Assembly: GCA_964016885.1 (NCBI GenBank)
Contig: OZ024743.1
Span: 168,206,001 to 168,270,000 of the forward strand
Length of the DNA: 64,000 nucleotides
Direction: 5' to 3'
Source of the DNA: Eledone cirrhosa
Lineage: Eukaryota
Positions 22,911 to 63,660 of the stretch are shown here, in pieces. The stretch's first letter is position 1, and every line of letters begins with the position of its first letter. Under the pieces are notes generated by a model. The model made no database searches and was not told the DNA's origin. It was given only the letters and a program-made list of their open reading frames with translations. The position numbers were made by a program, and so were the translations under genes.

Positions 22911-23292
22911 TTCTTTCATTATTGTTTCTGAGATATATGCCGAGTGTCTTCTTGACACCCAGGGCAAATAAATTCACAGTGTGCATTGGTAAGCCAGTTA
23001 ATACAGCACATTGATTATAATAAAAAAAAAACTGTATACATATATACACATGTGCATATGCATATGTAAATACAAGGAGGGATATCAATCTTACAGGGAT
23101 AGTGCTCTTCTCAATACGTGTGCAGTACCAGTCAAAACAATTGTTTGCACCACGTGCAGAGAGTGTAAACCAGGAATCATTCGCAAATATTGTTCTGTTC
23201 CTTTCTTGATCATTCCCAGTCCTCCCACAATGACTGGTATTGTAACGGCCTTGAGGTGCCACATTTTTTCAATTTCAATAAGCAGATATTTT
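22911..23292 (-). mobile_element. R4/Dong-like LINE 3' end (another family)
   Basis: KY..IEIEKMWHLKAVTIPVIVGGLG..VLTGTAHVLRRALSL*; flanked by (ATT)n. Confidence 0.85.
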
Positions 23293-23310
23293 ATTATTAT
23301 TATTATTATT

Positions 23311-26279
23311 CTTTGAGTCTCAGTCATTGATTTTAGTTAACTGGAAAGTTTGTTGAAATGAATATCAAGCCACTACCTGCAGCCTCAGATATTTAGGACG
23401 TATCGGAGGGTTCTTGCTGTTCCCAGCAAGCATGCCTTTTGAAGCGTTCCAAAAAGCGTGAAGGGGCCAATTTTCTTTAACCATCCCTGGAAACTTTTTG
23501 AGATAGTCCCTAGTGCGCCTATGACAATCGGGATCACTTTGACTTCATGGCAGTTCCAAATCTTTTTTACCTCCCAATTTAAGTCCTGGTATCGGTTAAT
23601 TTTCTCCCTCTCCTTCTCTTGCACTCTCGTGTCGAATGGGCAGGCCACAACCACAATCAGGCACGATCTTTTTTCTTTGTCCACAACCACCAGGTCAGGT
23701 CTATTATGTTCCAGTTTCTTGTCCGTCTGTATCCTAAAATCCCACAGCACCTTCACCTGATCGTTTTCTATCACCGCCTCTAGCTTATGCTCATACCACT
23801 TCTCAGAATGTGGTAAATTGTTTACTTTGCATAGGTGCCAGTGGATCACCCTGCCCATCACATCATGTATCCAGCCCTTATAGTGAGTCTGGGCTAGGTG
23901 TTTACACTCGGATACAATGTGAGCCACAGTCTCCTATCTCTCTCCACAGATCCTGCACAGTGGGCTAGCCTCCTCCTTGTAAATATGATGTTTCAACCAC
24001 TTCGTTTTGAGGGCCTGCTTCTGCGCAGCCATTAACATTCCTTCTGTAGCCTTTTTAAGGTCTCCTCTTTTTAACCAGTTCCATGTCTGTGGATCTCTAA
24101 ATTCAGTTTTCTCAAAGAAGGTACTATGAAGGGATTTTTCCTGAAGGCTGCTCTTTCTCCTTGATGTTATTTCCTCCTTGGACATCCCCTGGCCTATTGT
24201 CCCCTCCTTCAGTACAGTTCTGAGCATTGGCTCCTTACTATCAGTCACGTATTTGTGTAGGTTGTTTTTCTCCATCTGAACACAGTCCTCTATGCTGATA
24301 AGACCTCTTCCACCTTCAGATCTCCTTAAGTAGAGTCTATCGACATCACTCCTCTTGTGGAACATGTTACAACATGTTCCACAAGAGGAGTGATGTCGAT
24401 AGCTTCCTAGTCTTCCTATCCATTTCTTTTTGTTCAGCAACATTCCATCTCAGAATTCCCGCACTGTACCTATTAATAGACACAGCTCGGGAAATTACTG
24501 CACTTATGGCATTCCTACTGTTCAGATGTGACTTTAATACGCTCCTTACTCTCCGAATGTATTTAGTTCTTATCAATTCCTTCTTTTTTCGTTCTTGATG
24601 TCATCAGCCTCCAGAACGCCCAAATACTTGTATCCTTCTTCAGAGTTAATTTCCTTTATCATCTCACCTGTTGGTACCTGGATTCCGTTACTTCTGCTCA
24701 ACTTACCCCTCATCATCACAATGACTCCACACTTACTAATACCAAATTGCATACATATATCATTGCTGAAAATACGGACAGTGTCAACAAGCACATCCAA
24801 CTCCTTATCACTCTTCCCGAAGAGCTTAAGATCGTCCATGAAGAGGAGGTGATTGATGGTAAGCCCTCCCTTTCCCAACCTGTATCCTGCTCTCACTTTT
24901 CGCAGTACACTGGTCAGGGGCATCAGGGCAAGGACAAACAACAGAGGGGGCAGACTATGATCCTGGAAGATACCTCCCTTGATCTTCACGCTTCCCTAGG
25001 ATTCTCCAGTTGATGTTAACTCTATTTCCCAGGACTTCATACTTTTGCCCAACAACTGTCTGATGTTATCTGCCACCTTAAAGATCTCCAGGCTTTTGGT
25101 GATCCAAGAATGAGGCACCATGTCAAATGCCTTTTTGTAGTCTATCCCTCCCATGGCAAGACCAGTGTGTCTCCTCTTGCAATTCCTCATTACCATCTTA
25201 TCAATAAGTAACTGGTTCTTTGTACCACTTGACTTCTTTCGGCATCCTTTCTGTTCATCCGGTAACAAGTTGTTTGCATGGAGGTGATGGTAGATTTCCT
25301 CAGACATAATGCTTGTCAACAGTTTCCACATTACGGACAGACATGTGATAGGTCTATAGTTGGTAACATCATTACCCTTGATTCGGTCTTTCATTATCAG
25401 AACTGTTGTACCTTTTGTCAACCACTCTGGTACCTCACCTGACACCAAGCAGTCATTGAACATGGTTGTCAGTTTCGGGTGGAGGGATGTTATATTTTTA
25501 ATGCAATACCCCTGCACACCATCTGGGCCTGGTGATTTCCAGTTGGTTAGTTTTTTGGCCTGCCCCTTAAGAGTTTCAACTGTGATACTCAAATCAGTTT
25601 GTTGGTGTGCCTGTTCACTAATCTCCTTCTGTACTGTCTCAATCCACACTGCCTGGTCATTGTGTTTAACATCCTGCTCCCATATTCCTCTCCAGAATGT
25701 TTTAGTTTGTTCCGCCTCAGGGATCAAGTCGTTGCCTCTTTCTTTCCCCTCAAGCTGTCCAAACAGCATCTTCTGGTTGTTGTCAAACATGCGGTTCTGT
25801 CTATACTGACTGACTCTATTCTCGTATCGCCTGATTTTTGCACTCTTTGCTACAATGCGTTGCTTCAGTTCTTCTATGATAATATTTAGCTTTTTCCTCC
25901 TAGTTTTGTACTTTATTTCCAGTCTATTTTTAGTGTCTATGTTTTTTAGTGCCCCATTCAGTAGGGACTCAAGCTTTCCAATGTCATTTCTCATTTCCCT
26001 GATTTGACCACTCAGTCGTTTCTTCCACCAAGGCTCTGCTCTTTCTTGTCTGTTGTTTCCTCTCGCTTTTATACCAAGTAGTTTCCTCACCGTATTTGCT
26101 GTTGCTTTGAGGATATTGTTGCACTGGTGAAGGCTCCTCGCTTCAAGGTATGGGATGACTTTGTTTACCTTAGCTGTTGTTTCTTTTATCTTTTTCCTGT
26201 CTACAAATCTTAGGTTCATAGGTCTCCCACTATCATTGTTCAATTCATCTACCACTAAGTTTAGGATATAAACCAAATC
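23311..26279 (-). mobile_element. R4/Dong-like LINE family B, degenerate
   Basis: ORFs 24996-26276, 24573-24989, 23934-24443 and 23385-23927 with PWW, KSPGPDG, YRPITCL, DYKKAFD, FMDD, CRIC..HIVSEC, RPDLVV; (ATT)n at both ends. Confidence 0.95.
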
Positions 26280-26339
<60 letters not shown>

Positions 26340-27730
26340 TATCGGTCTGATCAGACGTACTTTTTCTCGCTCTCGTAAATCTCTTTATTTACCTGTCAAA
26401 ACTTACTTATTGTTAAATTTTCTTTATGTGTAAGGGGTATAAACCCTTGGAATTTGCCCTGTAAAGGGGAAAGTATAATATTTGAGCCTTTTGGCCCAAC
26501 TATTTGAACTTTTTACATTTTTTAAATTTATCGAAAAAAAAAAAAACATGGCTGGACCACGCCCCCCAGTGATATGTCTGCTGTCGTTTGACAACGACGT
26601 AAAAGTTTAGAGGAGGGTTACGGCGAACACAGAAATTGATACAACAAACATCACCAAAAACAACGTGAATAAAGACAGCAATGACAACAACACTGAGAAC
26701 ACTAATTTTGAAAACAATGACCACACTAACCACAGCAGTAACAGCGACAACCAAAATACAGACAACAGAAACAATGACAACAAATGCAACAACAATATTA
26801 ACACCACTAACATGAAAACAAATAGCGACAATATAATCTTAGACGCACGCCGGGACTGTGTGGGAGTATCCGATAGGAGAGGGGGTGCAAAAGCCTCAAG
26901 TACCTGATCAGCCATTTCCAACTGTCTGACAGGTACCGACTAGATTTCCCTAATGCGCGGGTGTGGACCTGGACCAACCACATAGTGTCATCTAGATCGT
27001 ATATAGACAGGATATTTATTAGGAAAATAGACAGAAATAGCGTAAGCTGCCACATTTTAAAACGGTCGCCTATTCAAATCACAAGTTTGTGATCTGTATG
27101 GTCGACCTAGATAAGAGGCGTAGGTTAAGACCTGGTTACTGGAAGCTGAACATGTCGTTTCCGGCACACAAAGCTTACAGGGACCGGGTCAATAATTTAG
27201 TTAAGAAAAAGTTGACAGAGGCTGTCGTCAACAATAGATGGTGTGTGTATGTGTGTGTCGGGGGGGGGGGGGGGGGGCAAAAGAGATATTAGAGTAACGT
27301 CGATAGGATTTAGCAAAGAAGTAGCATTAGAGAAAGATAGAAAGGAGGGGGATCTGGTAGATAAGTTAGACGAGGCTATTTGTAGTGGCATTGCAGCTGA
27401 TGTGCTAGCGGCGAGAATAGCATTAGATTATTTCTTCAAATCGAAACACGAAGGTTGCATTGTCAGAGCTAAGGCGCGTGCTCTGAGAAACGAGGTAACC
27501 AAAGCTGTTCGATGGGCCCGCGTGGCAGAGGCGCATCGTGGTAATAAAACCACAATTCGGTCTTTGACACACCGAGACGGACACGAGCTGAGCGATTCCA
27601 AGCGGATGTGTGAGGCCTTTCACCAACATTTTTCTCGGTTGTTCGGGGGAAGTGTCGGATCGGAGACGGTGGCGGACTTCAGTCCCTACCTCGATGGCTT
27701 GCCGCAACTCTCGACGGCCGACGCTGAGCT
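26340..27730 (+). mobile_element. L1/Tx1-like LINE 5' part (5'UTR/ORF1 start fused to APE end and linker), deleted
   Basis: ILDARRD, WTWTN..SRSYIDRIFI, PGYWKLN, KHEGCIVRAKARAL are homologous to 61390-62090. Confidence 0.8.
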
Positions 27731-28418
27731 CTCCCACCAATGCTTTTGATGGGTCAGGTCAAAATGCTTCCACATTACCCAATGTATGTATTGTGCAACT
27801 CTGTCGTGCCTGTTTAGGTATTCAGTTGGAGCTATAGGACTGCACATTGAAATTATGTGATCAATGGTGTCTCGTTTTTTTTTACATATACGGCATAGTG
27901 GGTTGCATCCATTTTTTATTATGTTGGCTTGATAATCTTTTGTTGGCAGACACTGATCTTGTGCTGATATAATCAGCCATTCAGTCTCCGATTTCAGCCC
28001 AGAGGATGCGAACCACTGATGGGTTAAAGTTTTGTCAACATCAGGATTATTAGCTCTTTCTGGGTATTTTCCATACAGAGTCTTTTCTGGCCATTTCTTA
28101 GCCAGTTCTTTCTTTGCAGTTACTTTTACCTGCTTTGCTTTTTCTGTATTTTTCAATTCAGCAGTAAAGGGAACTTCTGACATTTGTAGTTCAATACTGT
28201 ATCTTTGTGCATCTTTTGTAATGGAGTATGATCTGTTGATGCTTCCATGTTTCTAAACGAGTTTGATCAGCCAATCATGTATTTCCTTTAGATATGTAGA
28301 TAATCCAATTGTTGCAGTTTTCAAAGCAATATCTAACTGGATTAATCCACGTCCTCCTTCTTTCCTATGAAGACATACTCAATCTGTATCTGCCTTAGGG
28401 TGATGAATTCTGTGCATT
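27731..28418 (-). mobile_element. R4/Dong-like family A internal fragment
   Basis: Aligns to 18211-18910 (LYGKYPERANNPDVDK, CRIC..HIISMC). Confidence 0.9.
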
Positions 28419-29361: not shown

Positions 29362-29456
<95 letters not shown>

Positions 29457-29458
<2 letters not shown>

Positions 29459-29640
29459 CGAAGGAAATGTGGTAAGGAACCAGGTGGACCATAACGTACT
29501 CAATACTTAGGGTAGTAGAGTGGGTAATAGGAACCAGTAAGATTCCGACGCCTGAGCTCAAGCCGTTTCGACGGCTAATTCTAGTCCAGAATTAGCCGTC
29601 GAAACGGCTTGAGCTCAGCCGTCGGGGTCTTACTGGTTCA
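29457..29640. repeat. Short fold-back pLTR-like fragment between (TA)n tracts
   Basis: GAACCAGTAAG..GGCTAATTC (29531-29581) is inverted at 29589-29639; same family as 14421-14573; carries only the GAAA half of a hammerhead-like motif. Confidence 0.75.
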
Positions 29641-29641
29641 G

Positions 29642-29673
<32 letters not shown>

Positions 29674-29706
29674 GTATAAATATATATATATGTATATATA
29701 TACATA

Positions 29707-29769
<63 letters not shown>

Positions 29770-36754: not shown

Positions 36755-37485
36755 ATAAATTAAGAGAATACGAAGCGGTGACAGGAGCAATGATCAACCA
36801 GGAAAAGTCGGTGGGCCTGCAGCTCGGCACCTGGAGAGGCAGGTCCATGCCGTCCAACGGCATCGTCGGGCGCTGGACGGACGGACCAGTTAAATTGTTA
36901 GGGGTCTGATTCGGTCCGGACCTCCAGACGGACAAAAACTGGGACGAGGTGACGAGCAGGGTGGCCTCTCTCACCCAGAAATGGGCGGAGAAGAAGCTAT
37001 CCCTGAAAGGTCGAGCGGAGGTGGCAAACGCGTACATCGCGTCCGTCATCTACTACCGCCTGACCGTCGTACCTTGTCCTAAGCCCCGCCTGACTGCGCT
37101 GGAGCGTTTGCTCTTTCGCTTTTTGTGGAAGGGACACGCTCCGATGGTCAGGCGGTCCATCTGCTGTCAACACCCGCTACGTGGACACGCGCTCAGGCTA
37201 CGACATCTCCACCTCTTCCACAATGGTGATCAGGTGTGGTCGCCGTTTGCTAGACACGTCTTTCCCCAGCTCGTCTCCTTGACGAAGCTGCAGTCCTAGG
37301 TCAAGCAAAGACCTAGAGGGAGCGCTTGGAGACTGGAATGTCTTCAGGCGCTCACAGCCCTCAACCAATCGGGCAATGTGATCGGTGGAAACTCCACCTT
37401 GGCGTTCTATAGAGGATTAGTGGAGGGGAAGAGCGACGACGTACTTGGAGAAACTCTAGGCGTCGACGAAAATGAACTGGAGGGG
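36755..37485 (+). mobile_element. L1/Tx1-like ORF2 internal fragment (post-RT)
   Basis: YEAVTGAMINQEKSVGL, LSLKGRAEVANAYIASVIYY; homologous to 62865-63620. Confidence 0.9.
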
Positions 37486-37588
37486 TGAAGAAATATTTAA
37501 TTGGTGGCTGCCACAATTCCCTTTATTCATCGATGTATGTATGTATGTATGTATGTATGTATGTATGTATGTATGTATGTATGTATGT

Positions 37589-40500
37589 TATCTCTTTCTC
37601 TTAATTTCGAGTATATTTTTTTGACCGGCCACCTTCCTGTGGCAAGGTTGTAAAAGAAAAGAAATTGTCATCCCTTGAATCGCAAGAATGTTTTGCAAAT
37701 TTTGAAGGTGCCAGCTATCGCAGCCATTTCTAGACTATGAATTAGGGAGCTCCGCTCTTTGTCCGCAAATCCAAGTTCGGTCATACTTTGGTCCAAGCGG
37801 GTTGGTATATAACCCGTAGCTCCAATAATGATGGGTATGAAGCTAAAGGTGTATCTTGGATACTGGATTTGCAAACTCCTCATCAATGGTCCGTAGATGT
37901 CCTCCTTCTCCTGTATTTTTCTGACAACGTTTACATCAAGTGGGCAGCTGAACTCCACAACAGAACACGTTTTCAATATGTGGTCCCAAACAACAATATC
38001 AAGCCGGTTGTGCTTTAATTTGGTGGCAGTTTTTATTTTCAGGTTCCACCAGTATTCCTTAGTGCCATCTGTCTCAATATATTCTTCCTCGTTTGTTGTT
38101 AATTTTGTTTTCCGAAGTGCGTTCCAGATGGTTCTAGCTATCCCATCGTGTGTCATGGGGAGGTAGTAGCGAGATGACATTCTTTCGCAGCTGGCAACAA
38201 TGTGGCTTACATCCTCGATCTTTGTTTTACATAGCCTACATTTATTGCCAGCTGATGTCCCTCCCCTTTTGTGCAGCAGATATTTGGTAGGGAGTTCTTG
38301 TTCCTGTATTGCATAGAGATATCCCTCAAGGTGTGATGTCATAAACTTGTCGAAACTCCATGCCAGGCTTTTTGAGTGGTTTATCCCTTCAATGGTCTGT
38401 GTTTTACGTCTCAAGTATCCATGCACAACTTGTTCTGTAAATTGCTCAATTTTTTCATCTTGTTTGAACATTGAATAGGATCTTCCGATTTCTCTGGGTG
38501 ATAGATTTATATCAGGCTTTATTCAATATCTCTCCTCCAGATCAGTGGCTATTCTAATGATATATTTTTGTTCATGCTCATAAACCTGGGCAAGATGGTT
38601 GGCAACCTTTTTCCTCTGTTGAAGGTGTTGCTTCAGTGTTACTATCCGGGTCTCATATGATGTTAATATGGATTTTAGACCCCGGCCACCTTCCTTGCGT
38701 GAGTAGTATAGCCTATCCACATCACCATTGATGTTAATGTTCCCAGTAACACTGAGAAGTTTGCGAGTTCTAACATTCATCTCACTTAGTTCTTGCAATG
38801 ACCAGTTCAGCAGGCCAAATGTTGGGGTTAGAATTGGCACAGCATAAGTATTGTGGGCAATGTATTTGTTTTACGCTGACAGTTCTGATGACCATATTTT
38901 CTTTACTCTTCTGAGGTATTCAGTTCTGGTTCTCTCCTTATTTATGGGTCCATCATATCTGACATTCTCATCCTGACCAAGATATCTGTAGTTGTCACCT
39001 GACTGTAGAGATTGTATTGTCAGGCCGTTCATCTCTAGATTTCTAGAGGAGGGCACAGCTCTTCCACGTTTTACTGCCAAATATGCACACTTGGACTCAC
39101 CAAATTTCATTTTGATGTCTGTTGAAAATTGTGTAATGACGTCCAATTGTTTCTTGATGTCATTGATATTTGGCCCATACAACTTCGGGTCATCAACAAA
39201 GAAAAGATGGGAGATCTTCTGGACCCACTTCTTTGTCCACCTTGTTTCCTGAGTAGGTAAAATAGTGGATTTAGTGAGAGAACGAAGAGTAGCACTGACA
39301 AGCTATCACCCTGAAAGATGCCCTTCTGGTAATGTATCCTATCAGTCTTAACTTGCTCCTTCTCACCTCTAAGGATCAAATTGGTGTACCAGTTCTTGGT
39401 CAGACGTTCAACAGCAGCTACCAGTGGTTGTGGGACTTTGGCTAACTGTAAAGCCTTAACAATCCACCCATGAGGTACACTATCAAATGCATTTGGATCG
39501 TCCAGCCACACCACAGTCATGTTTCTACGATTCTTTGTTGTTTTTTCTTGAATAATTTTATCAGTTAGTAAGTGATCTATGCAACCCCACACCTCCCTCT
39601 TTCCACCAGCTTGCTCAGGTGTTATGATGCTGTTGGTAGCACAGTGATCCTGTAAGAACAGGTTAAGGCACCCAGTATATAATTTATACATGATGTTTTG
39701 GCAGGCTATTGGGCGGTAATTTTTAGCAAGGGTGGTTTGGCTATTTTGGGGAATGAGGAGAGTAGTGGCAGTTGATAACCATCTGGGCAGTTCTTGTGTG
39801 GCTTTAATGGTTTCTGTAAACAGCCGTATGAGATCTTGCCGATAGAAAGTGAAATTCTTCAACCAGTATCCTGTAATGAGGTCTGGGCCTGGTGATTTCC
39901 TATTCGACATTTTCTGTAGAGCTGTTTCCAGTATTGACCTATCTATGTCATATTGTTTTGTCTGGACATGTTGGCAGTAGTCCTGTTCCAGTTCTTTTAG
40001 CCAATTAGTTTGTCTGTTGAAGCTGCGATAAACTGATTTAGGATCTCTGGCAAACAATCTATTTAGCACTTGTCGTTTATGTGCTGTTGACTTATATTTT
40101 AGTCTTTCTGTTGTAGCTGTGAGTCGTTGTTTCAACTGGTGTAATTTGGAGTTCAAAGTTTTAAATTTTGTATCTCCAAATCGTCTCTCTAACTTTTTTT
40201 TAGGTCTTCCTGGTGTCGTGTGAAGTTGCTCTCTATGTTGCATTTCATAACGACTGCGATGTGTGAGATACTTCGTCTCAGGGACAACATTTTGCTTTTT
40301 AAATTTCGCATCAACGCTGGTTCAGGCTTTTTGTTTGTATCTTGATTGCGTGGTTTTAGATGTGTGTTATATGATAGCAATGTGACAGCTGAAACATATA
40401 ACAAAATAATAAGCGTTTCAAATGTCGTTTCTACACCTTTAAATCGTATAGCCTTCAGATAATTGCCAGCTATTTCGTTCACCGCTTCCAATTCCAATTT

Positions 40501-41463
40501 AGTGGGTTCTTTACTGATTCTGGTGTTGTATGGTCTGTCACTCACATTAAGGCTGTGTATCTCTTGAAACATATCGTCCAATATCACTTGTAAGGTGTCC
40601 ACAAGTTTTTGGTGTTCTGTTTGTACAGTAGAGTCATGAATTTCAGCCTCGTTGTTGATGTGGTGACAATTACTACTAGAGTTAGCTGACTATTCTCGCT
40701 GTTCTTCAGTGGAAGTGGGATGGATTTCAGCAAAATTGTTGGTGAGCTGTTCACTGTTAGATTTAGCTGGCCATTCTCTTTGTCTGTCAGTGGAGGTGGG
40801 TGGTTGTCTACAAGGGCTGTATTTGTAGTATCACTCAATTCCGTTAGATGTATCAATTTACATCTAATGATACGTTTTGCCTGTTCATTTTAATGCTTTG
40901 GAGAAACGTCTAATTCTGGGTGTTTGGAGTTCCATAAAGTTTTTAGCCTTTGCATAAAACCGAACTTTTGGGGTTCAGATTGTTTGTATGCTTCATATAA
41001 TTCTTTGTTAAGCTCGTAGCTCCACTGTATACAACGGTTATAGTTGCGATTTGGTCGAAGGAGACTTGTACGTTTTGCCATGATGAGTTCGTCTATTCAC
41101 TAATATTTTGTATTTATTTTTCAAAATAGTCGATAATCTTCTTTAAAAGTTTCGACAAAGTTCTGTCAGAATCAAATTTAAAGTTATTCACAGCTTGGGT
41201 AATATTTCTTTATAAATGTAATATAACAACGTTGCATTTATATGTTAAAGTGTATGTATCGTTCATATATCATAAGTGTATGTATCGTTCATATAAATAG
41301 GTGTTTTACAACACACTTACAGTTCAAACACTTATGTAGAATTATTGTATGTAATCTTACCGCGTAATGTAGCTCAACTTTTTCCAATATATGGTATGTT
41401 GCCTTCATGTAAGCCGTAATTACACACGTCCAATTATCGGACGCTGACCACAACGGTCGCCAT
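37589..41463 (-). mobile_element. R4/Dong-like LINE family C, near full length, degenerate, in (TACA)n
   Basis: ORF pieces 40890-41081 through 37668-38471: KSPGPD, NYRPIAC, AFDSVPH, GIFQGDSLS, FVDD, CRLC..HIVASC, EFSCP; (ATGT)n at both junctions. Confidence 0.92.
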
Positions 41464-42032: not shown

Positions 42033-43348
42033 ATCTATACATACACTGTAACAAAACATTCCTTACAAGGACTGAACATAAAGCAATCTATTTCCTATTG
42101 ACACTGCCTCCGTCTCTCACTATATTCAGCAAATGGGGACTTCCTAAATATCAAATGAGTGACTATTTTTATAGTCTGTAAAAGCTTCAAGAGATTAAAA
42201 ATGTTAATGTCTCTACAAATGTACTCAAGACTCTCCCAGTTTCTTTAGAAAAAAAAAAAAAATAAACAATGAAATTGTAATTGTAGAGAGACAAATATAT
42301 TAATGTATATACAAAATAATATATGCTATATATTGAGGTATATTCAAAATAATATATGCTATATAAATGTGAATTGAATAAAGTATATATAGCTTTATTT
42401 AGGAAAACAGTAATGTTTTGATACTTTGGTGCATTTGCAAATTGTTACGTTGGCGAAACAATTATAGAAAAACTAAGCAGACAAGTTTTCAAACCTTGAA
42501 AAATTATAACAGTATATCTGTATATATCTAACAAATAGTTTGTGTGCGTGTGTGTGTTTAAAATTAATATATAAAAACGAATTAAGTGGGTAGTATTTTT
42601 TATATTTGTAAATTCAAATGTACATAATCACACACAGACACGCTTCACCACCGTGTATATATATTTAGTTAATAAATGAAACAAAACAAAACACAGCGGG
42701 TACAATTACACAGTCATATTAGATTCACGCTTGGATATATATATATATACGAAAATATAAATTGGATTAGTTAAATGATTGAAAGAATACAACTATTTGC
42801 GTGAACCCAGCACATGAAACACGAAGTATTGCCTTTTACTAATGTGCTTCATTTTCCTCCCCACCAATAGATTAGTAACCATTAATTGAAGAAATATATA
42901 AACTTTATTCATTAACATAAGAATTGGCCCTAGGCCAAAGTAAGAAATCAATACTAAGTCACGTCTAATCTTTATTTCTCATTATATACTATAAATTAAA
43001 TAAGATGCATTTTCTAGATAAGCAGGAGATACATGGTTCGATTCCTCAAAATTGATTAATTGCTATTTTTCTATTTCACATTGATATATATGTCAATGTT
43101 AAATAGAAAAAGTGCAATTAATCGATTTTAACGAATGGAAGATAAACGATGTTAAACGATAATGATGATGATGATATATATATATATATATATATATATA
43201 CAGTATTTTCCGTTGTGTTGTAATATAAATATTACACACAGTAGATTATCAGCTCACGTAGAGTTTGCTCGACGGTTCCAGTTGTAGTTCCAAAAGTAAT
43301 CCGGAGAAAAATAGAAAGATTTGAATGGATACAGTTTAGTTGAAAGGA

Positions 43349-43470
43349 ATTTATTGACACGTGTTTCTATAACAGTTACATAACCTAAAACAGCTATCTA
43401 CAAACTTTTAGTTATGCAGACATTCAATATTTCAATGTTATTATTTACTGTCATTTCATCAGAATAATAT
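43349..43470 (-). ncRNA. Hammerhead motif, long stem II (left arm)
   Basis: Mirror of 45724-45845. Confidence 0.75.
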
Positions 43471-44059
43471 TACTGAGGACCTATTTAGTTTTTATAGAGA
43501 ATATTAGGAGGGAGGGGTGAAGTTGTTAGAAGAATAGTTGAAGGAGTGGTTTTTCGATAGCAGTGAGAATTCTTGGTGGCAGTGAGTAATTAGATTCACA
43601 TCTGTTGTTTTGACATTTTTTATAGAATATATTATTGGTTATTTTTCTAAATCTATAGAAGGATTAGAGATAGTAAAGATATGCGTGGTTGGTTTTGTGT
43701 TTGCACTTAACATTCAGACTTAAATTTTTCTTTCAAGTGTACGTATTCTTTCACCAACGCATTCACACACAAATATATTTGCACACCTCTACAAAATACA
43801 TATACTCACAATTCACATATTCATACTTACATATATATACACATGCATACACATATATATACACACATGTATTCATGTACATACATACGCGCTCATGTGT
43901 ATACATTTTCATACTCAACTTATCTTTATATATACACACGTATAGACACACACATATATACATACATACTCTAGTCCATGTGTACACACATACACATACA
44001 TACACATCCATATACACATACATACATACACATATATATATACATATATATATATACAC

Positions 44060-44098
<39 letters not shown>

Positions 44099-44125
44099 CA
44101 TACATATACATATATACACATATAT

Positions 44126-44158
<33 letters not shown>

Positions 44159-44878
44159 AGCACTTTAATACATGAATACACTTACATCTAACTATACACA
44201 TCAAACATATATATATATTTACTTATTTATATACATTTTCACATATATATACATACTTATGGACGTTTTTAGACACATTCATTATCGCATATTTGTACCT
44301 ATTCTCATCAGCATATCTTTTCATTATTAGTATGGTAATTTAAGGTTATTAATATATGTTGAGAAGAGATTGTTTTTATATTTTTCTAACTAGATTAAGG
44401 TTTATATAGTTGGGGGATGTCCCTCTTTTATGTAATATTCTGCTTGTAGTGGGAAAAAAGGGTTTTAGTTCTGTGACGGCAGAATAATGTTCGTTCAATT
44501 CTGTTATTCAGCAGTTTCTTCTTGTGTGTGATTATGTAATCACACACAAGAAGAAACTGCTGAATAACAGAATTGAACGAACATTATTCTGCCGTCACAG
44601 AACTAAAACCCTTTTTTCCCACTACAAGCAGAATATTACATAAAAGAGGGACATCCCCCAACTATATAAACCTTAATCTAGTTAGAAAAATATAAAAACA
44701 ATCTCTTCTCAACATATATTAATAACCTTAAATTACCATACTAATAATGAAAAGATATGCTGATGAGAATAGGTACAAATATGCGATAATGAATGTGTCT
44801 AAAAACGTCCATAAGTATGTATATATATGTGAAAATGTATGAAATATAAGAATCAAAGAACTGTTCAAAACATTATTG

Positions 44879-44925
44879 TGCTTACAGCTGTTTCCTCCAA
44901 ACCGAGGTTTGGATTCTTCGGAGCA
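44879..44925 (-). ncRNA. Minimal hammerhead (CCGAAGA variant) inside a 106-bp insertion
   Basis: TGCT-CCGAAGA-ATCCAAAC(ctcg)GTTTGGAG-GAAA-CAGCTG-TA-AGCA on the minus strand. Confidence 0.8.
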
Positions 44926-45035
44926 ATTTATTAATGCATGGACAGTTATATGTGAAAATGTATATAAATAAGTAAATATATATATATGTTTGATGTGTAT
45001 AGTTAGATGTAAGTGTATTCATGTATTAAAGTGCT

Positions 45036-45072
<37 letters not shown>

Positions 45073-45097
45073 ATATGTGTATATATGTATATGTATG

Positions 45098-45134
<37 letters not shown>

Positions 45135-45723
45135 GTGTATATATATATATGTATATATATATGTGTATGTATGTATGTGTATATGGATGTGTATGTATGT
45201 GTATGTGTGTACACATGGACTAGAGTATGTATGTATATATGTGTGTGTCTATACGTGTGTATATATAAAGATAAGTTGAGTATGAAAATGTATACACATG
45301 AGCGCGTATGTATGTACATGAATACATGTGTGTATATATATGTGTATGCATGTGTATATATATGTAAGTATGAATATGTGAATTGTGAGTATATGTATTT
45401 TGTAGAGGTGTGCAAATATATTTGTGTGTGAATGCGTTGGTGAAAGAATACGTACACTTGAAAGAAAAATTTAAGTCTGAATGTTAAGTGCAAACACAAA
45501 ACCAACCACGCATATCTTTACTATCTCTAATCCTTCTATAGATTTAGAAAAATAACCAATAATATATTCTATAAAAAATGTCAAAACAACAGATGTGAAT
45601 CTAATTACTCACTGCCACCAAGAATTCTCACTGCTATCGAAAAACCACTCCTTCAACTATTCTTCTAACAACTTCACCCCTCCCTCCTAATATTCTCTAT
45701 AAAAACTAAATAGGTCCTCAGTA

Positions 45724-45845
45724 ATATTATTCTGATGAAATGACAGTAAATAATAACATTGAAATATTGAATGTCTGCATAACTAAAAGTTTGTAGATAG
45801 CTGTTTTAGGTTATGTAACTGTTATAGAAACACGTGTCAATAAAT
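45724..45845 (+). ncRNA. Hammerhead motif, long stem II (right arm)
   Basis: TTATT-CTGATGA-A-ATGACAGT..ACTGTTAT-A-GAAA-CACGTG-TC-AATAA. Confidence 0.78.
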
Positions 45846-45877
45846 TCCTTTCAACTAAACTGTATCCATTCAAATCT

Positions 45878-45932
<55 letters not shown>

Positions 45933-47840: not shown

Positions 47841-47877
47841 ATTGTGGTTACCAGCGATTGAACCCGGGATAAACTTA

Positions 47878-47945
<68 letters not shown>

Positions 47946-47982
47946 TAAGTTTATCCCAGGTTCAATCGGTGGTAACCACAAT
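47841..47982. repeat. Inverted repeat (~42-bp arms) centred on (TA)n
   Basis: ATTGTGGTTACC..AAACTTATCTGA / TCAGATAAGTTT..GGTAACCACAAT. Confidence 0.85.
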
Positions 47983-50279: not shown

Positions 50280-50284
<5 letters not shown>

Positions 50285-50593
50285 GTTTGTATATGTATAA
50301 TAAAGCCAAAACAATGCAGGTATGGACATAGAATAAAGAATGCAAATGCAAAAGATATTGTTGACAATTAGTCTTTTACCTTAGATTTATTTAAATGTCC
50401 TTAATTTTAGAGATAATACTGGATTAACAGCTTTACTTCCCTCTGAAGAAGAGATATTATCTCGAAAATTAAGGACATTTAAATAAATCGAAGGTAAAAG
50501 ACTAATTGTCAACAATATCTTTTGCATTTGCATTCTTTATTCTATGTCCATACCTGCATTGTTTTGGATTTATTATACATATACAAACGTTTA
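50280..50593. repeat. Fold-back element (~140-bp arms) with a hammerhead-like motif at 50438-50475 (+)
   Basis: Arms 50280-50418 and 50455-50593; CCT-CTGAAGA-A-GAGAT(att)ATCTC-GAAA-AT-TA-AGG. Confidence 0.75.
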
Positions 50594-52483: not shown

Positions 52484-52937
52484 CTATCTATCTATCTAGC
52501 TAGCTAGCTATCTCTAATTATTCTCTGTTGGAGCCAGCAGTCAGCCAAGGTGGAATTTAACGGTAAATATACGAGGCAAACATTTATTAACATTCACTGA
52601 ATTTCAGCAAATATTTCCCTAAATCCCACTTTCGCACTTCTGTTTTTCACGTCAGCTGCACATCTTTTCAACATTGTAGGCTAGTGTATGCGTGCGTGTG
52701 TGCTTGTGTGTATATATATAGATCTGATATGTGTGTTTATGTATGTGTGCATGTGTGTATATGTGTATGTGTGTACGAAGTGATGTGTAAATTAACATGT
52801 ATCTATCTTTCTATCTATCTGGTTCCTTTTCTACGTATATGTCTGTCTGTCATAATATCTATCCGTCTATCGATCTATCTATCTTTCTATCTGTCTGTAT
52901 ATCTATGTATTTATCTACCTACACAACCACCTACCTA

Positions 52938-53922
52938 TCTACCTGCCTATCTATCTAAAATGGGCGACTGGCACATCGAATGTGCTCAGGCGCTCACAGC
53001 CCTCTGGCAGGCGGACTCGGCGATCAGTGGAGATTCCACTTCGTCATTCTATAGAGGGTTGATCCGCAGCAAGTGCGACGACGCGCTTGGTGAAACTCTA
53101 GGCGTAGAGGAAGATGAACTGGCCAGTCTGTTCGGTAGGACCTTCCGCCCGGGACCGATGGACAACTTCCAAAAGTCCCTGGCCTGGCAGTGCTACCGAG
53201 GAGCTCTACCAGTTCGAGACAAGCTCTACAGACATGGACGCCCGGGCAGGGACCCTGCAAAAAAGATCTGTCCGAGGTGCGTGCGAGACGAAGAAACCGT
53301 CGCGCACGCATTCATACACTGCCCGGGCGTCACTGACCAGTGGGGCTATGTAGAACGACTATTGTCGCGGGTGGGACCAATCCGGTTTACCACCGAGTCC
53401 ATTGTCATGATCAAACCGCCACCCTCCTTCAAAAACGAAGGAGATACGGTTTTCCTTTGTGTGATAGCTATGGCGAAAGAGGTTGTATGGTGGACAAGGT
53501 TGAAAGGGCTGAGGTCAGACACCTTTCTCTCCCGCCAACAACTGATTCTTTTTTTCAAATACCACTTTGGAAGAAGAATCAGGATGGAAAGAGAGGTGCT
53601 GTACCCCAGCAAGTTTTATGAAAGGTGGGTGAAAGTGGCGAGAATGGCCCGAGTGAATGGGCCTTCTCTCTATATCAGCCTGTAGGTTGAGGAAAAGGAG
53701 GAGGAGAGGAAAGGAGTACAAACTCTTCGTACTCCTGCAGATGAGGGTTGCACATTTTTTCGGGGCTATGTGTTACCCATATGAACTGTCTCCCCTATTG
53801 GGGAAAATAGACTAATTTTTTAAATTGCATTTGTGATAATATTTTACACGTTTTTATTGTATGTGAACTTCCTCCTTTGTATTTGTCCCCTTCTTTTGTG
53901 CCCCTGTGGCTAATAAAGAAAC
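52938..53922 (+). mobile_element. L1/Tx1-like LINE 3' part (zf-RVT-type CCHC) in (ATCT)n
   Basis: Open frame to 53685: AWQCYRGALPVRDKL, CPRC..EETVAHAFIHC; ends AATAAAGAAAC-ATATCTATCT. Confidence 0.92.
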
Positions 53923-54342
53923 ATATCTATCTAATCTCTCTCTGTTCTTTCTTTATCATCTATAGCATTCCTCATATCTCTTCCTATTTCGACTTATTAA
54001 TTTTCATGTCTTTGAGTTTTATTTGTTTCCCTATTAATTTACTCACCTCTCCAGTCTTCCCCGATTTCATATCTCCTAATATCTTTGGATACTATGCACA
54101 TAGCACTTGGCCTGTCACTCTCTTTTCAGTCCATAATTGGAGCGGATTGTTATTTCTACAAATACTGCGCTAAGCTGTATTTGTTATCAAGCAGGTCGAA
54201 ATTTCTCCATATTCGTGAAGTTCAATAACGCACGGAAAAACATCAACCAGTACGCTGTCGACACGTCATAGATTTGTAACGTTCCGTTATCGAACTGCCT
54301 CTGTCAATGCATGCTTTCATGTGCACGTGTATGTATGTATGT

Positions 54343-57300
54343 TCTTCTGGTTTTATAATTTCATAAAGTTTTACCAATAGAGATAGAGTCGGTTTCTAAT
54401 ATAGACACAAGACTCCCTCATTGGAATTTACACAACATCAACTAGGTAGATATGTATGTATGTCTGCATGCATGCATGTGTAGTTATGGATGTTATTGTA
54501 TGTGTGGATGTGGATGTTTTGAGTTGTATGTGTGCATGTGTATATGCTTTGTATCTGTACATGTGTATATGCAGTTATTAGATGCAAAATTTTTGGAATG
54601 TTTTACATATTTTTACTGTTCCATTAATGGATTGTACTTGTAATTTCCTAACTAGTTGTGTTCTTTCTGTTCCTGTGAAGCCTAGCTTCTCAAGATTTGT
54701 ATTGAGGCAGTTACTAACATATCCCAGTGCCCCAATAATCACAGGCATAAATCTGAAGGTGTAATCAGGGTGGAGTATCTGCAGATTTCTCATCAGTTCT
54801 GCATAAATATTCTCCTTTTCACTAATCTTTGATATTATATTGGCATCTGCTGGGCAGCTAATTTCCACTACTGTGCATGTTTTCTTCTCCCTGTCCCATA
54901 TCATAATATCTGGTCTGTTATGCCTGCATTTTATTGGGGTTTTTACTGGAACATTCCACCAGTACTCTTTCATATTATGTACATGGATGTCTTCCACGTT
55001 GTTGTAGCTTTTAATGTGTTTATTATCGGGGCTATCTTTTTTACGAACTGCATTGTATAGTGTTTTGGCCACTACATCATGCCTCATAAGTAGATAGTAC
55101 CGCGATGACATCTTTGGGCAGCTGCTGATGACATGGGTGATATCCTCGATGTTAGTTCTGCAGAGTCTGCACTTGTTATCACATCTAGGTGTTTTGCCTG
55201 CATCCCTCTCTCTTTTGTGAATCAGGTATTTCATGCTAATCTCCTGTTCTTGGATTGCAAGAGCGTATCCTTCAAAGTGGGAGCCAATATAGCGGTTGTT
55301 GGTCCAAGATAGACTACTTTCCTTATCTATATTACTCTTACTCTTACTGGAAACATATCCATGCATGATTTTTTGCTGATAGGCATGCAGTTTTTCATCC
55401 ATGGATTCACTGCGATACTGCTGAGCGACATCCCTGGGTGTGAGTTTTTGATTATCACACAGGTAATATCTCTCAAGGAGTTCCTTCCCAACTCTCATGA
55501 TCTTATCTGTTTCATGCAGATAGACTTGCTCGAGAAGCGGGCTCCTACGCTTCGAGGTTCGTAGATGTTGTCGGAGAGATATGATGCGACATTTAAATGT
55601 TGTCTGGACTGATGTTAGGCCTCTGATGTTAGCCACTGTTTAGTTTTGCGCAGAGAGTTCCGATGACCAGATCTTTCTTAATCGGGTGTAGTATTCCCTG
55701 GTTACGCGTTCTTATTTACATATACCATTATAGGATATGTTCTTATCTATCCCCAGGTATCTGTAGCAGACCTCATCAGATATCGGTGAAACAGTTAGAC
55801 CATTGATGACAATGTTGCTAGATTGGGTTGTTGTTTTCCCCCGCTTTACAGTCATGTATGAGCATTTATCTTGGCCACACTCCATTCCTATATCCTTTAT
55901 CCCATTCCTATATCCCATTCCTATATCCTTTCTTTCCAGCTTCTTGTTCATCTGTGATGATGTTATTATTTTCACAGTGATCTTGGAGGAATAGGTTGAG
56001 GCAGGCTGTATACACCTTCTACATCAGGTTCTGGCATGCAATGGGTCGGTAGTTTTTTGCCAAGTGGGTGTCTTTGTTTTGGGGGGACCAGTAACGTTTG
56101 TGCTAATGTCAACTATTCTGGTATAAGTGTATCTCCCTTAAGAACTTGTTGGTAGAGGTCAGTAAGATACCTCCGATAGAATATTAGTGTTTTGTACCAG
56201 TAGCCGACAATCATGTCTCTTCCTGGTGTTTTCTTATCTTGGAGTTTTCCTATCACAGTCTCAAGGGTACCCTCACTTATTTCGTATGTTTTTGTTGTAG
56301 TGTAGGAGCAATAGTTCTTTCGGATTTCTCTTAGCCACACTGCATCTTGGTTGAAATTCTTCTTTTCACCCCATATTTTTCTCCAAAAGGAATCTATGTC
56401 TTATGCCTCAGTGACACTTATTATTTTGCCCTTCATATCTCTATAGACTGATGTTTGGTTTCTTCTGAATCTTTTATTAAGCACTTTTCTCTCATCTACC
56501 TTCTTCAGGCATCGGCGTTTTTCGCTAACAGCTCTCAATTCTTGTTTGAGGGTGATCAGCTTATATTGGAGAGTTCTGGTTCTACTGTTACCAAACATCG
56601 TCTCTATTTTATTTTTCACTCTTTGTTGGTGAGGAGTGAGGTTTTTTTGTGTTTGTTTGCATGTAAGGAGCATTGTCACATATCCTATGTTTTTTCGTAG
56701 GTCAGCACTCTTTTTTTCTATTTTAGTTATATATGATGGTATCTTTGGTGGTGTTTTGTTCTTGTTAATATCTCTACTATCACCAAGATAATGCTTCACT
56801 GTCGTTGCTAGAGCATATAAACAGGCGTTGATTTGCCAAAATGTTGGGGTTTTTATCCGTCGTAAATATTCATCCCCTATTTCGTCAATAACACGTAGTA
56901 TTTCATTATTTGGTTTTTTATTCACCATTGTCGTTTTCACACGTTCAGCAAGAGAGATATTTATACATGAGTTAATTTCTCTCTGGAAGATTTCGTTGAG
57001 GGAAATTTTCATTTTTTTATACTTTTGATTATCATTATCGATAGTATTTTCCACAACAGTCGAGGTAGACTCGGATGGTACACTTGGTGTCACATTTATT
57101 CGATTATTATTATTATCGATAGCGTTTTCCCCAGCATTCGAGGTAGACTTAGATGGTACAGGTGGTGTCAAGTTTCTTACATGCATAGTTGTTTCAAGGA
57201 GCTGTTCGACCTGGCTGCTAGGAAGTCTAGTAGCATGGCGACCTGTACCACGTGTTGTTGATTCCATGTTTGTTGTTGGGGACTTACAATTAATAATATT

Positions 57301-57820
57301 TATCTTATTTTTACGTTCAACAAACGTCGCTTGTTGGCGTAATTGTTTCGCTGTGAAATAATTTAGCTTTGGGTGCATTTCGTCCCAGTGTAGCTACATT
57401 CTATTCATATAGCCAATGGAGAGATTGTTTTTTGCCATTTTATAACAATTAAATAAATCATTATTAAGTTCGCAACTCCAAGAGAAATGCGATTTATAAT
57501 TTCGGTTTCTCCTGTAGCTACAACTGAATAAAGTTTGATTACCTTCTTTGTTATTTGTCTTCGATACTTCCTTAATTTTCTTGTTGATGTTGTGTTCAGC
57601 CATGCTGTTTGTAGCAAATCCTTGTAAAATGAATTATGTATTTAGTCGGATATCGCTACGAATTCGAATAAAAGGTGTCTTCAGAAAGGATAGTTAGAAT
57701 AATAACCAGTTATTCAACCTGACTGTAGTTGTGGCGTTACTGTCGGAGATATTATTCATCTTAAATTTAATAAATAGTCTCCCACGCCAAAATATGCGAC
57801 TGATCGCGTTGACTGTCTTT
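54343..57820 (-). mobile_element. R4/Dong-like LINE family D, both ends apparently present, RT core deleted, in (TACA)n
   Basis: ORFs 57394-57603, 56401-57378 and 54578-55636 (CRLC..HVISSC, RHD, RPDIMIWD, EISCP). Central RT motifs are missing near 55900-55940; (ATGT)n at both ends. Confidence 0.9.
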
Positions 57821-60918: not shown

Positions 60919-63660
60919 GTGCACCTTTTCGTCCTTTTTCTCCAACTTTTCTTCACCAACGTGGCTAGTTTACGAGTTGGAAGCGTGAATGTACGTGGCC
61001 TAGAGATGTCCTGGAAACAGGGCCAACTTTTAAACGACCTTAGGTCACACGGTATGGATGTGATAGCCATCACCGAGTCCAGGATCCACAACAGGAAGCA
61101 ACTAACCCCCATCTTTGACGACTATCTACACATCTCTCTGTCAGCCAGGAGGTGGAAGGGGAGAGGCTGTCATGTTTCGGAAGAACCTGGACATCGAAGT
61201 ACAGCAAGTACACTTGGACACGGAGGGTAGACTGGTAGTCCTAGACGTGAACAGTATTGGAGGTGGAGCCTTCAGACTGGTGGCCGTTTATGCCCCGACC
61301 GGGTAATCGCAATCACGGCCAGACTTCTTTAAGCGTCTAGGGTTTTTTCTGGGAACATCTCGCTCCTTACATTTAGTGGGGGACTGGAATGGTATCCTAG
61401 ATGCACGATGGGACTATCTGGGAGCATATCCCAGTAGAGGGGGGTGCAACAGCCTCAAAACATTAATCGGCCAATTCCAACTGGCCGATGGGTATCGACT
61501 GGATTTCCCGACTGCACCACTAGATCGTATTTAGATAGGTTCTTCATTAGAGAAAGGGACAAGGAGATGTTAAGCTGTCCACGAATGCACATGGTTACCT
61601 ACTCAGATCACAAATTAGTCATCTGCTTAGTGAACCGTGATAGAATACATAGGCAGGGACCCGGATACTGGAAGCTGAACGTGTCGTCGCCGGCACGTAA
61701 TGCTTACAGTGAACGGATAAGTAGACTAGTCAAGCAACAGTTAACAGGAGCCATCGTCAACAATAGATGGTGGTATTCTCTCAAGAAAGAAATTAGAGTA
61801 GAATCGATAGAGTTTAGCAGAGAGTTAGCCTTAGAGAAAAACAAACAAGAAAGAGAACTAGTAGCCAAGGTAGAGGAGGCACTTAGAAGTGACAACGCGG
61901 CTAGAGTGTTAGCGTCGAGAACTGCACTAGACCAGTTCTTCGATGCTAAACACGAAGACTGCGTGGTCAGAAGCAAAACACGTGCTCTAGGAAACGAAGG
62001 AGCGAAAGCTGTCAGCTGGGCCCGAGTGGCGCAGGCAAAAAGTGGCAACAAGTCCACGATTCGGTCTTTGAAAGACCAAAACGGACGCGTGCTACTTGAC
62101 GCTGAGATACGGGACGCTCTGGGCCACTGCGGGAAACGCAAGTCACCAGGTCTAGATGGTCTACCCTATGAGTTTTACCTAGGCATGCCAGACTTGTTCT
62201 CTGGCGTCCTCGAAGCCGTCTACTGCAATTGGCAGCAGAACGGGAGAATTCCCAGTTCTGCAGGCAAAGGCGTAGTAACGCTGATAAGGAAAGACGAGAA
62301 CAAGGGGGACGAAATTAACAACTTCAGGCCCATAACTCTGCTCAACACAGAATTAAAGATTTTGGCCAAGGTGCTAGCGACGAGGTTGGCGCTTGTCGTC
62401 GAGAACCTGGTAGGTAAAGCGCAAACGTGTGCAATCTCGACCAGGTCCATACACGACAACCTCCACCTCATGCGATACATCATAGAGAGGCTGGGTAGTA
62501 AACCCAGCTTCGGTGGGGCTCTGATCAATTTGGATCAGTCTAATTTTGAAGCGGTTCTCAAGGCGGCCGGTTTCGGTCCCGTTTTCAGAGGCTGGATCGA
62601 GGCGATGCACACCAGCATCTGCTCGAGGGTCAAGGTGAACGGCTACCTATCGGAGCCGTTCGCAATCACGCGTTCCATTCGACAGGGGTGCCCTCACTCC
62701 TCCATTCTGTATGTATTGACTCTAGAGCCACTACTGCGGAAATTGGAGCTGTTGCAGGGCATCCCTCTAGAATCGGGACTGCGCAAAGCGGCGTCGGCTT
62801 ATGCCGACGACGTGACGGTAATGGTGTCGAGCACCTCGGAAATCGGGGTGATCGGCAACTTACTGAAAGAATACGAAACGCTGACGGGAGCAAAACTAAA
62901 CCCGGACAAGCCTGTCGGTTTGCAACTCGGTACGTGGAGAGGCAAAGCGATGACGTCCGACAGCGTCGTTGGACGCTGGACGGATGGACCGGTGAAATTG
63001 CTCAGGGTCTGGTTCGGTCCAGACCTCTAGGTGTAGAAAAACTGGAACGAGGTCACGGCGAAGGTGTTTGCGCTCACCCAGAAGTGGGCAGAGTGCAAAC
63101 TGTCCTCGAAAGATCGAGCGGAGGTGGCGAACACTTTCATAGCGTCCGTCATCTACTACCGCTTGACTGTCGTGCCTTGTCCCCGTGAACACCTCGCCAA
63201 GATGGAACGCATGCTCTTCCAGTTTCTGTGGAAGAAGCAGGCTCCGCTGGCGAGGAGATTCATCTGCTGCCAGAACCCTTCCAACAGAGGGCTGGGAATA
63301 CCGTGGCTGACGATGCGCAAACAGGGGCTGAGGCTGCAGCATCTCCAGGTATTCCTCACCGACCCCCAACCGGTGTGGGCACCGTTTGTGAGACAGGCTT
63401 TCCCACAGCTCGTCTCGTGCACGGAGCTGCAGTCCTGGGTCAAGAAAAAGACCGAAAACGATGGGCGCCTGGCACATTGAATGCGCTCAGGCGCTCACAG
63501 TCCTCTGGCAAGAGGGCGCAGCAATCAGTGGAGACTCCAGTTCGACATTCTATAGAGGGATTGTAAGTTACAAGGGCGACGACGTGCTCGGAGAGACTCT
63601 GGGCGTCGAAGACGATGAGCTCACCAGTCTGTTTGGTAGGATTTTTCGCCCGTGACCTAT
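60919..63660 (+). mobile_element. L1/Tx1-like ORF2 (APE endonuclease + RT), degenerate, 3'-truncated
   Basis: GSVNVRGL, AITES, VYAP, GDWN, SDH, KSPGLDGLP, FRPITLLN, IRQGCP.S, YADD. Confidence 0.95.

What the first reader, a model, noticed from the sequence alone, without database searches (positions are those of the whole stretch)
44824..44963. 106-bp insertion consisting of little more than a hammerhead, with a 17-bp TSD and an internal empty-site control
Seen: TATATGTGAAAATGTAT is duplicated at 44824-44840 and 44947-44963 around insert 44841-44946, while the mirror arm (~44231-44247) has a single copy. The insert holds a complete CCGAAGA hammerhead with a palindromic CAGCTG. Inference: a recently mobilised, minimal ribozyme-bearing retroelement, or an extreme PLE truncation.
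Basis: partly seen in the sequence, partly recalled or inferred. Interest (0 to 1): 0.75.

Follow-up and report, generated by a model that had tools for sequence, protein, structure and literature searches.

The report
Shortened Penelope end with readable duplication
This 106-base insert is the exact tail end of a very abundant Penelope-type jumping gene, likely pasted in by a copying reaction that stopped early, and it carries a predicted self-cutting RNA motif only because that motif lies next to the gene's end, so it is ordinary rather than a new mini-element.

Summary
In detail: a 17-bp duplication, a 106-bp insert, an empty mirror arm and a type I hammerhead motif on the minus strand. The 'minimal mobile element' reading fails its own test. 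The insert is letter for letter the 3' end of a young 4.2-kb Hydra-clade Penelope-like element (PLE; 2,365 exact 3'-end hits). Sampled copies share fixed 3' ends but have scattered 5' ends (39 to over 1,500 nt; 11 of 94 are 135 nt or shorter). Only about 3 solo copies share this 5' boundary, roughly background. The ribozyme's cut site lies 42 nt from the end, so any stub over 85 nt holds it whole. The surrounding 2.7-kb palindrome is a head-to-head insertion of a second Hydra family (about 1,400-1,700 copies, all further empty sites). By-products: inverted pairs always join one short and one tailed end (26 of 26; 14 of 14), and readable two-armed copies mostly carry a 13-bp duplication. This suggests a staggered cut primed on both strands. 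The '17 bp' includes 6+3 nt of junction microhomology. The scan has already noted Hydra ends and two-armed insertions on other DNA of this genome.

The parts
44841..44946 (-). 3'-terminal 106 nt (up to 115 with junction microhomologies) of Hydra-clade PLE family A, ending at the family's short (S) 3' end at 44841
   Evidence: Identical to the end of intact copy L034; S end shared by 49 of 102 sampled anchors
44879..44925 (-). Minimal type I hammerhead motif of the family A pseudo-LTR; predicted cut between 44883 and 44882, 42 nt from the element end
   Evidence: Motif scan, coordinates; palindrome varies among families while mostly staying palindromic; activity untested
44824..44840 (.). Target duplication, copy at the element's 3' end; 3 nt next to the insert also match the element
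44947..44963 (.). Target duplication, copy at the truncated 5' end; the 6 nt next to the insert (44947-44952) also match the element (microhomology)
44231..44247 (.). Empty site in the mirror arm
   Evidence: 1,680 further empty sites in the genome
43201..44534 (-). Left arm of a head-to-head insertion of a second Hydra-clade PLE family (B): 5'-truncated copy ending in the long (L) end with a 113-bp tail (43201-43313), followed by (TA)n
   Evidence: full copies encode a 779-794-aa ORF, 41% identical to family A
44537..45880 (+). Right arm of the family B insertion, ending at the short (S) end before (TA)n; interrupted by the family A stub
45727..45843 (+). Family B hammerhead motif (CTGATGA core, long stem II, palindrome CACGTG); mirror copy at 43351-43467 on the minus strand; predicted cut also about 42 nt from the S end
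   Evidence: distance counted from the sequence

Best explanation
The insert is the exact 3' end of an abundant Hydra-clade Penelope-like retrotransposon, likely written into a TA-rich spot of another Penelope copy by a target-primed reverse transcription that stopped after about 110 bases. Shown: the element's identity, its fixed 3' end, its variable 5' ends, the duplication, the microhomologies, the empty sites. Inferred steps: (1) the element's GIY-YIG nuclease nicks TA-rich DNA on both strands with a stagger; (2) one nicked end pairs by 3 nt (ATA) with the RNA at the short start site 42 nt downstream of the ribozyme cut site and primes cDNA, which reads through the uncut (or re-joined) ribozyme; (3) normally the opposite nick primes a second, inverted cDNA at the tailed start site 166 nt further on, giving the usual head-to-head pair; here that second priming did not happen; (4) instead the opposite target end annealed to the short cDNA through CATATA and primed second-strand synthesis, leaving a one-armed stub with a 17-bp duplication. 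The stub has no gene and no second ribozyme, so it is likely inert.
For: 1,828 and 2,365 exact hits for two 27-mers of the insert. Hits 4.2 kb apart flank an ORF of 832-859 aa whose model (pLDDT 86.7) matches telomerase RTs best (top 5 of 500, E 9e-9 to 5e-8) and has the Hydra motifs (Craig 2021, section 11). Of 102 anchors: 49 S ends, 45 L ends, 8 internal. 5' ends of 94 terminal copies: 65 resolved between 39 and 1,511 nt, 29 longer than about 1.5 kb; 11 of 94 are 135 nt or shorter and 5 of 94 stop inside or below the ribozyme. Junctions at this boundary: 7 in the genome, against 4-8 expected from the local density of 5' ends (rough estimate). Comparable solo stubs with other boundaries: L165 (about 140 nt, 14-bp duplication) and L083 (78 nt). 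De novo PLE insertions in Chlamydomonas have a median length of 128 bp (PMC9977147, passages); TSDs of 8-10 bp and microhomology joins are described for rotifer PLEs (PMC3846280, passages); two internal RT start sites, extension of both strands and an uncleaved template are shown in vitro for a Poseidon PLE (PMC11167929, parts 1-2 of 4).
Against: No biochemical test of this family. The 17-bp duplication is longer than the 13 bp typical of two-armed copies, so the second-strand step is a reconstruction. The 5'-end sample is the first part of contig C1 only (102 of 2,365 anchors). The stub spans almost exactly the 111-bp interval between two copies of a 10-bp internal repeat (L031 6063 and 6174), which other routes could also produce. 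Two more solo copies (L201, L202) share the boundary within 1 nt.
Confidence: 0.9

Rival explanations
1. An independently mobile minimal ribozyme element (a nascent retrozyme) of about 106-111 nt, copied from its own RNA by the PLE enzyme.
For: Complete hammerhead motif; the piece spans the interval between two 10-bp internal repeats; two other solo copies share the boundary (L201, L202); animal retrozymes are proposed to derive from PLE pseudo-LTRs (bioRxiv 10.64898/2026.07.22.740005, part 1 of 5).
Against: About 3 solo copies among about 2,000; the window copy has no variant of its own, and the variant shared by L201 and L202 also occurs in the long copy L009; no tandem copies seen in the 19 hits; a single minimal hammerhead cannot excise a unit RNA, and single min-HHRs did not cleave in vitro (PMC4209133, parts 1-2); the hairpin region just downstream of the S site, a candidate binding signal, is missing from the stub.
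Confidence: 0.04
2. A host repair patch: a break in the family B arm was filled by copying from a family A DNA or RNA copy through microhomology, without the element's own enzyme.
For: Microhomology at both junctions (6 and 3 nt); no second arm; duplication longer than the family norm; palindromes are break-prone (recalled).
Against: The 3' end falls exactly on the family's fixed S end (49 of 49 S-class anchors end within 5 nt of it); the target is TA-rich as for the whole family; a clean duplication without loss of target sequence fits a staggered nuclease cut.
Confidence: 0.05
3. Assembly artefact.
For: Repeat-rich, palindromic setting; no public contig spanning a junction was seen.
Against: Both junctions are precise, carry a duplication and obey the family's end rule; the palindrome itself follows the S+L rule of 14 of 14 family B pairs.
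Confidence: 0.01

Closest known systems
Hydra clade of C-terminal EN+ Penelope-like elements (Craig et al. 2021, PMC8557442; read: passages, section 11, supplement look-ups)
   Same: RW[K/R], DKT, CxCx5C linker, CxxC and CxH around the nuclease end, (TA)n targeting, hammerhead near the 3' end (in two published consensus sequences the end lies 46-47 nt after the cut site, counted), 5' truncation, inverted copies, one-sided tail.
   Different: Unit is 4.2 kb (published Hydra generally under 3 kb); tails are 166 and 113 bp rather than 30-40 bp; U4C core. The finding itself is only the last 106 nt.
Minimal type I hammerheads of PLE pseudo-LTRs (Cervera and de la Pena 2014, PMC4209133; read: parts 1-2 of 4)
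   Same: Long helix II (7-8 bp), short helix I (4-5 bp), extra base after position 9, small palindromic helix III suited to dimers; most occur as single motifs in truncated PLEs.
   Different: U4C and no G10.1-C11.1 pair (A.G here; A.A in family B).
Poseidon PLE PAc of Anolis (Frangieh et al. 2024, PMC11167929; read: parts 1-2 of 4)
   Same: AT-rich target, two internal RT start sites that define the tail, both strands cut and extended, ribozyme cleavage not needed for insertion.
   Different: [quoted passage not shown]
Non-LTR retrozymes of animals (Cervera and de la Pena 2020, PMC7229834, passages; Li et al. 2026 preprint, part 1 of 5)
   Same: Protein-free, AT-rich, type I hammerhead, link to PLEs.
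   Different: Retrozymes are tandem repeats of 150-450-bp monomers with their own sequence families and circular RNAs; this is one 106-bp copy identical to the autonomous element's end.

Membership tests
Hydra-clade PLE (parent element A) | Single ORF with telomerase-like RT | tested here: met
   832-aa ORF; YRDD in 108 of 108 aligned relatives; best fold matches are TERTs. No Pfam hit above cut-off for the query itself and no PDB sequence match.
Hydra-clade PLE (parent element A) | C-terminal GIY-YIG nuclease without CCHH | tested here: inconclusive
   VIY...YVG motif at residues 710-727 conserved as [VI][VI]Y...Y[IVY]G; PF01541 precomputed on 2 of 120 listed relatives (family name recalled). 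The domain was not folded or searched alone, and the absence of CCHH was only judged by eye.
Hydra-clade PLE (parent element A) | RWK-type, DKT, CxCx5C, CxxC and CxH motifs | tested here: met
   RWR at 51, DKT at 136, CNC-x5-C at 691, CNLC at 789, CQH at 817; RW[KR] 100 of 108, DKT 97 of 108, CRH 99 of 108 in A1.
Hydra-clade PLE (parent element A) | Insertion into (TA)n | tested here: met
   Only 42 of 2,365 end anchors continue ATA plus a non-T base; sampled S and L ends are followed by TA repeats.
Hydra-clade PLE (parent element A) | Pseudo-LTR partial tandems, inverted 5'-truncated copies, one-sided tail, hammerhead | tested here: met
   4.2-kb tandem spacing; 26 of 26 inverted pairs are S+L; motif.
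Hydra-clade PLE (parent element A) | Phylogenetic placement inside the Hydra clade | not tested
   No tree built; assignment rests on motifs and on resemblance by eye to the published proteins seen.
Hydra-clade PLE (parent element A) | Generally shorter than 3 kb | tested here: not met
   Unit of 4,198 bp; a tendency in the paper, not a strict criterion.
Minimal PLE hammerhead | Core, long helix II, short helix I, palindromic helix III | tested here: met
   palindrome is CAGCTG (A), CAATTG (related families), CACGTG (B); a common imperfect form CGATTG also exists.
Minimal PLE hammerhead | U4 and G10.1-C11.1 | tested here: not met
   C4 and A.G. U4C is a known natural variant with reduced activity (PMC3088659, passage); published Hydra motifs also vary at the stem II base.
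Minimal PLE hammerhead | Self-cleavage as a dimer | not testable with these tools
   Predicted only: two copies co-fold through the palindrome at -35.1 kcal/mol against -11.7 for a monomer.
Non-LTR retrozyme | Tandem repeats of 150-450-bp monomers, two or more hammerheads | tested here: not met
   Single 106-bp copy; no tandem copies among boundary hits.
Non-LTR retrozyme | Own family with shared boundaries | tested here: not met
   About 3 solo copies, background level, no private variant.
Non-LTR retrozyme | Expressed as small linear and circular RNA | not testable with these tools
   No RNA data available for the stretch.

The most novel reading that the evidence does not exclude
Copies that land in imperfect TA sites, like this one, expose the cutting geometry that pure (TA)n hides: Hydra PLEs make a 12-13-nt staggered cut centred on ATA-N6-TAT, and a dimeric enzyme primes one cDNA from each 3' overhang, always one at the short and one at the tailed RNA site, sometimes re-copying the start motif in telomerase fashion. 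The window's stub is the rare event in which the second end could not pair with the RNA and was joined to the first cDNA instead. This would be a concrete, testable two-primer mechanism for the head-to-head, one-tailed structure of PLE insertions.
Probability: 0.55. Interest if true: 0.5.

Novelty: new member of a known kind. Interest (0 to 1): 0.22.

Why it matters
As reported, it matters little: short hammerhead-bearing stubs are the expected debris of PLEs, and thousands lie in this genome. Its value is as a clean specimen. Because it fell into a non-repetitive site with over 1,600 empty controls, both junctions can be read. Together with similar copies it constrains how PLEs cut and prime, which the papers read here call unresolved (origin of tandem/inverted structures and microsatellite bias, PMC8557442, discussion passage). 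The intact young ORFs (L034, L119) offer substrates for that test.

Tried and rejected
DNA search of the genome with the 106-mer returned nothing, not even the window (the tool skips common words), so patterns were used. Rfam: no hammerhead family at E<=1. Pfam on the ORF and PDB sequence search: nothing useful; a Pfam scan of the whole alignment was not obtained, so family names for the relatives rest on accession numbers. Sequencing runs: no RNA holder listed. Laying four runs' contigs showed family B empty sites and related ribozyme variants but no contig across either junction; a hole proves nothing, so presence of the insertion in other individuals is open. Lunse et al. (PMC5785218), on PLE hammerhead variants, was not held; it may already describe U4C or the stem II mismatch. 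Rejected: that the palindrome is a fold-back of host DNA or was made by this insertion (it is family B); that the two core departures are decay of this copy (family majority); that cDNA stops preferentially just above the ribozyme (5' ends are spread, 5-20 per 100 nt over 27-215 nt, small numbers); that the CATATA site is a hot spot (7 junctions, about background). My first boundary search missed joins into (TA)n; closed that gap and added L201 and L202. Simple folds of the sequences after the S and L sites gave a bulged hairpin at the family A S site but no clear common fold for all four sites. Supplements of the bioRxiv preprint were not seen.

Full report
Observation. The 17-mer is duplicated at 44824-44840 and 44947-44963 around 106 bp and is single in the mirror arm at 44231-44247. 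A type I hammerhead motif lies on the minus strand at 44925-44879. It has all its parts but is of the minimal, dimer type, with C at position 4 and an A.G opposition at the base of stem II. Rfam does not detect it and the 106-mer alone is not unusually stable.

What the insert belongs to. Two 27-mers of the insert have 1,828 and 2,365 exact matches in the 3-Gb genome, with 0 for the reversed controls. Many lie 4.2 kb apart on one strand or in head-to-head pairs. The DNA between tandem hits encodes an ORF of 832-859 aa. Its predicted structure (pLDDT 86.7) matches telomerase reverse transcriptases best, and it carries the motifs that Craig et al. give for the Hydra clade of Penelope-like elements (section 11 read; motif counts over 108 aligned sequences). 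No tree was built. The insert is identical to the last 106 nt of the intact copy L034 up to its short end.

Ends. I mapped the 102 end anchors present in the loci fetched from the first part of contig C1 (of 2,365 genome-wide). They fall into 49 short (S) ends, 45 long (L) ends with a 166-bp tail, and 8 internal pseudo-LTRs. The 5' ends are scattered: of 94 terminal copies, 65 were resolved between 39 and 1,511 nt and 29 ran beyond about 1.5 kb; 11 are 135 nt or shorter and 5 lack a whole ribozyme. The ribozyme occupies positions 39-85 from the S end, so every stub over 85 nt is 'little more than a hammerhead'. In two published Hydra consensus sequences the end likewise lies 46-47 nt after the cut site (counted).

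One search found 7 hits with a changed base just upstream of CATATA: the window copy, 2 joins to an inverted element piece and 4 point changes in long copies. One search found 9 hits one base further in: 2 solo copies (L201, L202), 2 two-armed insertions and 5 point changes. One search (TA repeat close upstream) found only two of these loci again. So 7 junctions, 3 of them solo, lie at this site, against a rough 4-8 expected from the local density of 5' ends. The window copy has no private variant. Against my reading: the piece spans the 111-bp interval between two copies of a 10-bp internal repeat, and L201 and L202 share a variant, though the long copy L009 has it too.

The host palindrome. 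Its arms are a second repeat family with 1,399 exact hits for one 29-mer and 1,680 hits for the empty site. Full copies encode another Hydra-type ORF, 41% identical to the first over 813 aa. The window holds a head-to-head pair, 43201-45880, with an L end on the left (113-bp tail) and an S end on the right. It has its own hammerhead with the palindrome CACGTG, again about 42 nt from the S end. The finding is thus a family A stub nested in a family B arm.

Two-armed rule and duplication length. All 26 inverted pairs of family A join one S and one L end; so do 14 of the 14 family B pairs with both ends resolved, among 21 loci examined. Only 42 of 2,365 family A ends continue into an imperfect TA site, and 30 of these were fetched. 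Among 41 two-armed rows, 19 had non-TA bases near a junction: 8 gave an exact 13-bp duplication, 2 gave 15, 1 gave 7 or 15, and 8 gave none. Of those 8, L160 shows 13 bp by eye, four have their non-TA base at or beyond position 13 or a repeated L end, and three (L013, L023, L066) do not fit 13. L141 adds one more 13-bp case by eye. The 13 bp include TA microhomologies at both ends; a symmetric 12-bp reading is possible. At 13 of 49 S ends the terminal motif is repeated 1-4 times. The window's 17 bp include 6 nt and 3 nt that also match the element, so the true stagger is 8-17 nt and may be the family norm. L165 is a similar one-armed stub with a 14-bp duplication.

Mechanism. Most likely the nuclease cut both strands, one end primed cDNA at the S site, synthesis read through the uncut or re-joined ribozyme and ended after about 110 nt, and the other target end annealed to the cDNA by CATATA instead of priming its own inverted arm. 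These steps are inferred. They agree with the in vitro work on a Poseidon PLE (two internal start sites, both strands extended, cleavage not needed; PMC11167929, parts 1-2), with TSDs and microhomology joins in rotifer PLEs (PMC3846280, passages) and with the 128-bp median of new PLE insertions in Chlamydomonas (PMC9977147, passages). The ribozyme is probably maintained in the parent: the palindrome changes between families while mostly staying self-complementary, though an imperfect form is common. A single copy is not expected to cut (PMC4209133); U4C lowers activity in other hammerheads (PMC3088659, passage).

Novelty. The finding is a new instance of a known kind. Five literature searches showed no paper giving a duplication length, a strict S+L rule or end reiteration for Hydra PLEs, but only listings and the passages named were seen, and one relevant paper was not held. 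Earlier notes of this scan already describe Hydra ends, two-armed insertions and a tail hairpin on other DNA of this genome; a word search for the duplication and reiteration found none. Interest 0.22.

Noticed in passing
L003, L005, L008, L036, L048, L066, L095 and others (S ends); L034, L084, L160 (L ends): The terminal motif is repeated 1-4 times before the TA tract at 13 of 49 S ends, and sometimes at L ends: repeated priming or slippage reminiscent of telomerase repeat addition.
   Followed up: partly
Family A and B loci; window 43201-45880: Strict pairing of one short and one tailed end in head-to-head insertions (26 of 26; 14 of 14), with a 13-bp duplication in most readable family A cases.
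   Followed up: yes
window 2980-7450: An older, broken Hydra-type PLE of a third family: inverted stub at about 2980-3050, pseudo-LTRs with CCGATGA hammerheads at about 3330-3375 and 7233-7278, ORF fragments at 3990-4701.
   Followed up: partly
window 47157 (+), about 51660 (-), about 16050 (-), 14994 (+): Further hammerhead-like motifs from other families found by the motif scan, some in short palindromes (15268-15658, 29385-29765, 47850-47970, 50280-50593).
   Followed up: no
L168-L197: 3,840 hits for related hammerheads with other palindromes; the base of stem II is a mismatch in several families (A.G, C.A, A.A) and a U-A pair in others.
   Followed up: partly
L035-L036 (G000:C1:56973500-56986000): Two apparently full-length family A copies arranged head to head in one insertion.
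   Followed up: no
window 17649-28417, 36900-40700, 52591-57393, 61438-63566: Several LINE-type reverse transcriptase ORFs and fragments, one with a 2-kb tandem duplication at 17649-22167; types judged by eye.
   Followed up: no
L202 upstream flank: A short perfect inverted repeat around a TA tract directly upstream of a solo family A stub; possibly the ends of another element.
   Followed up: no
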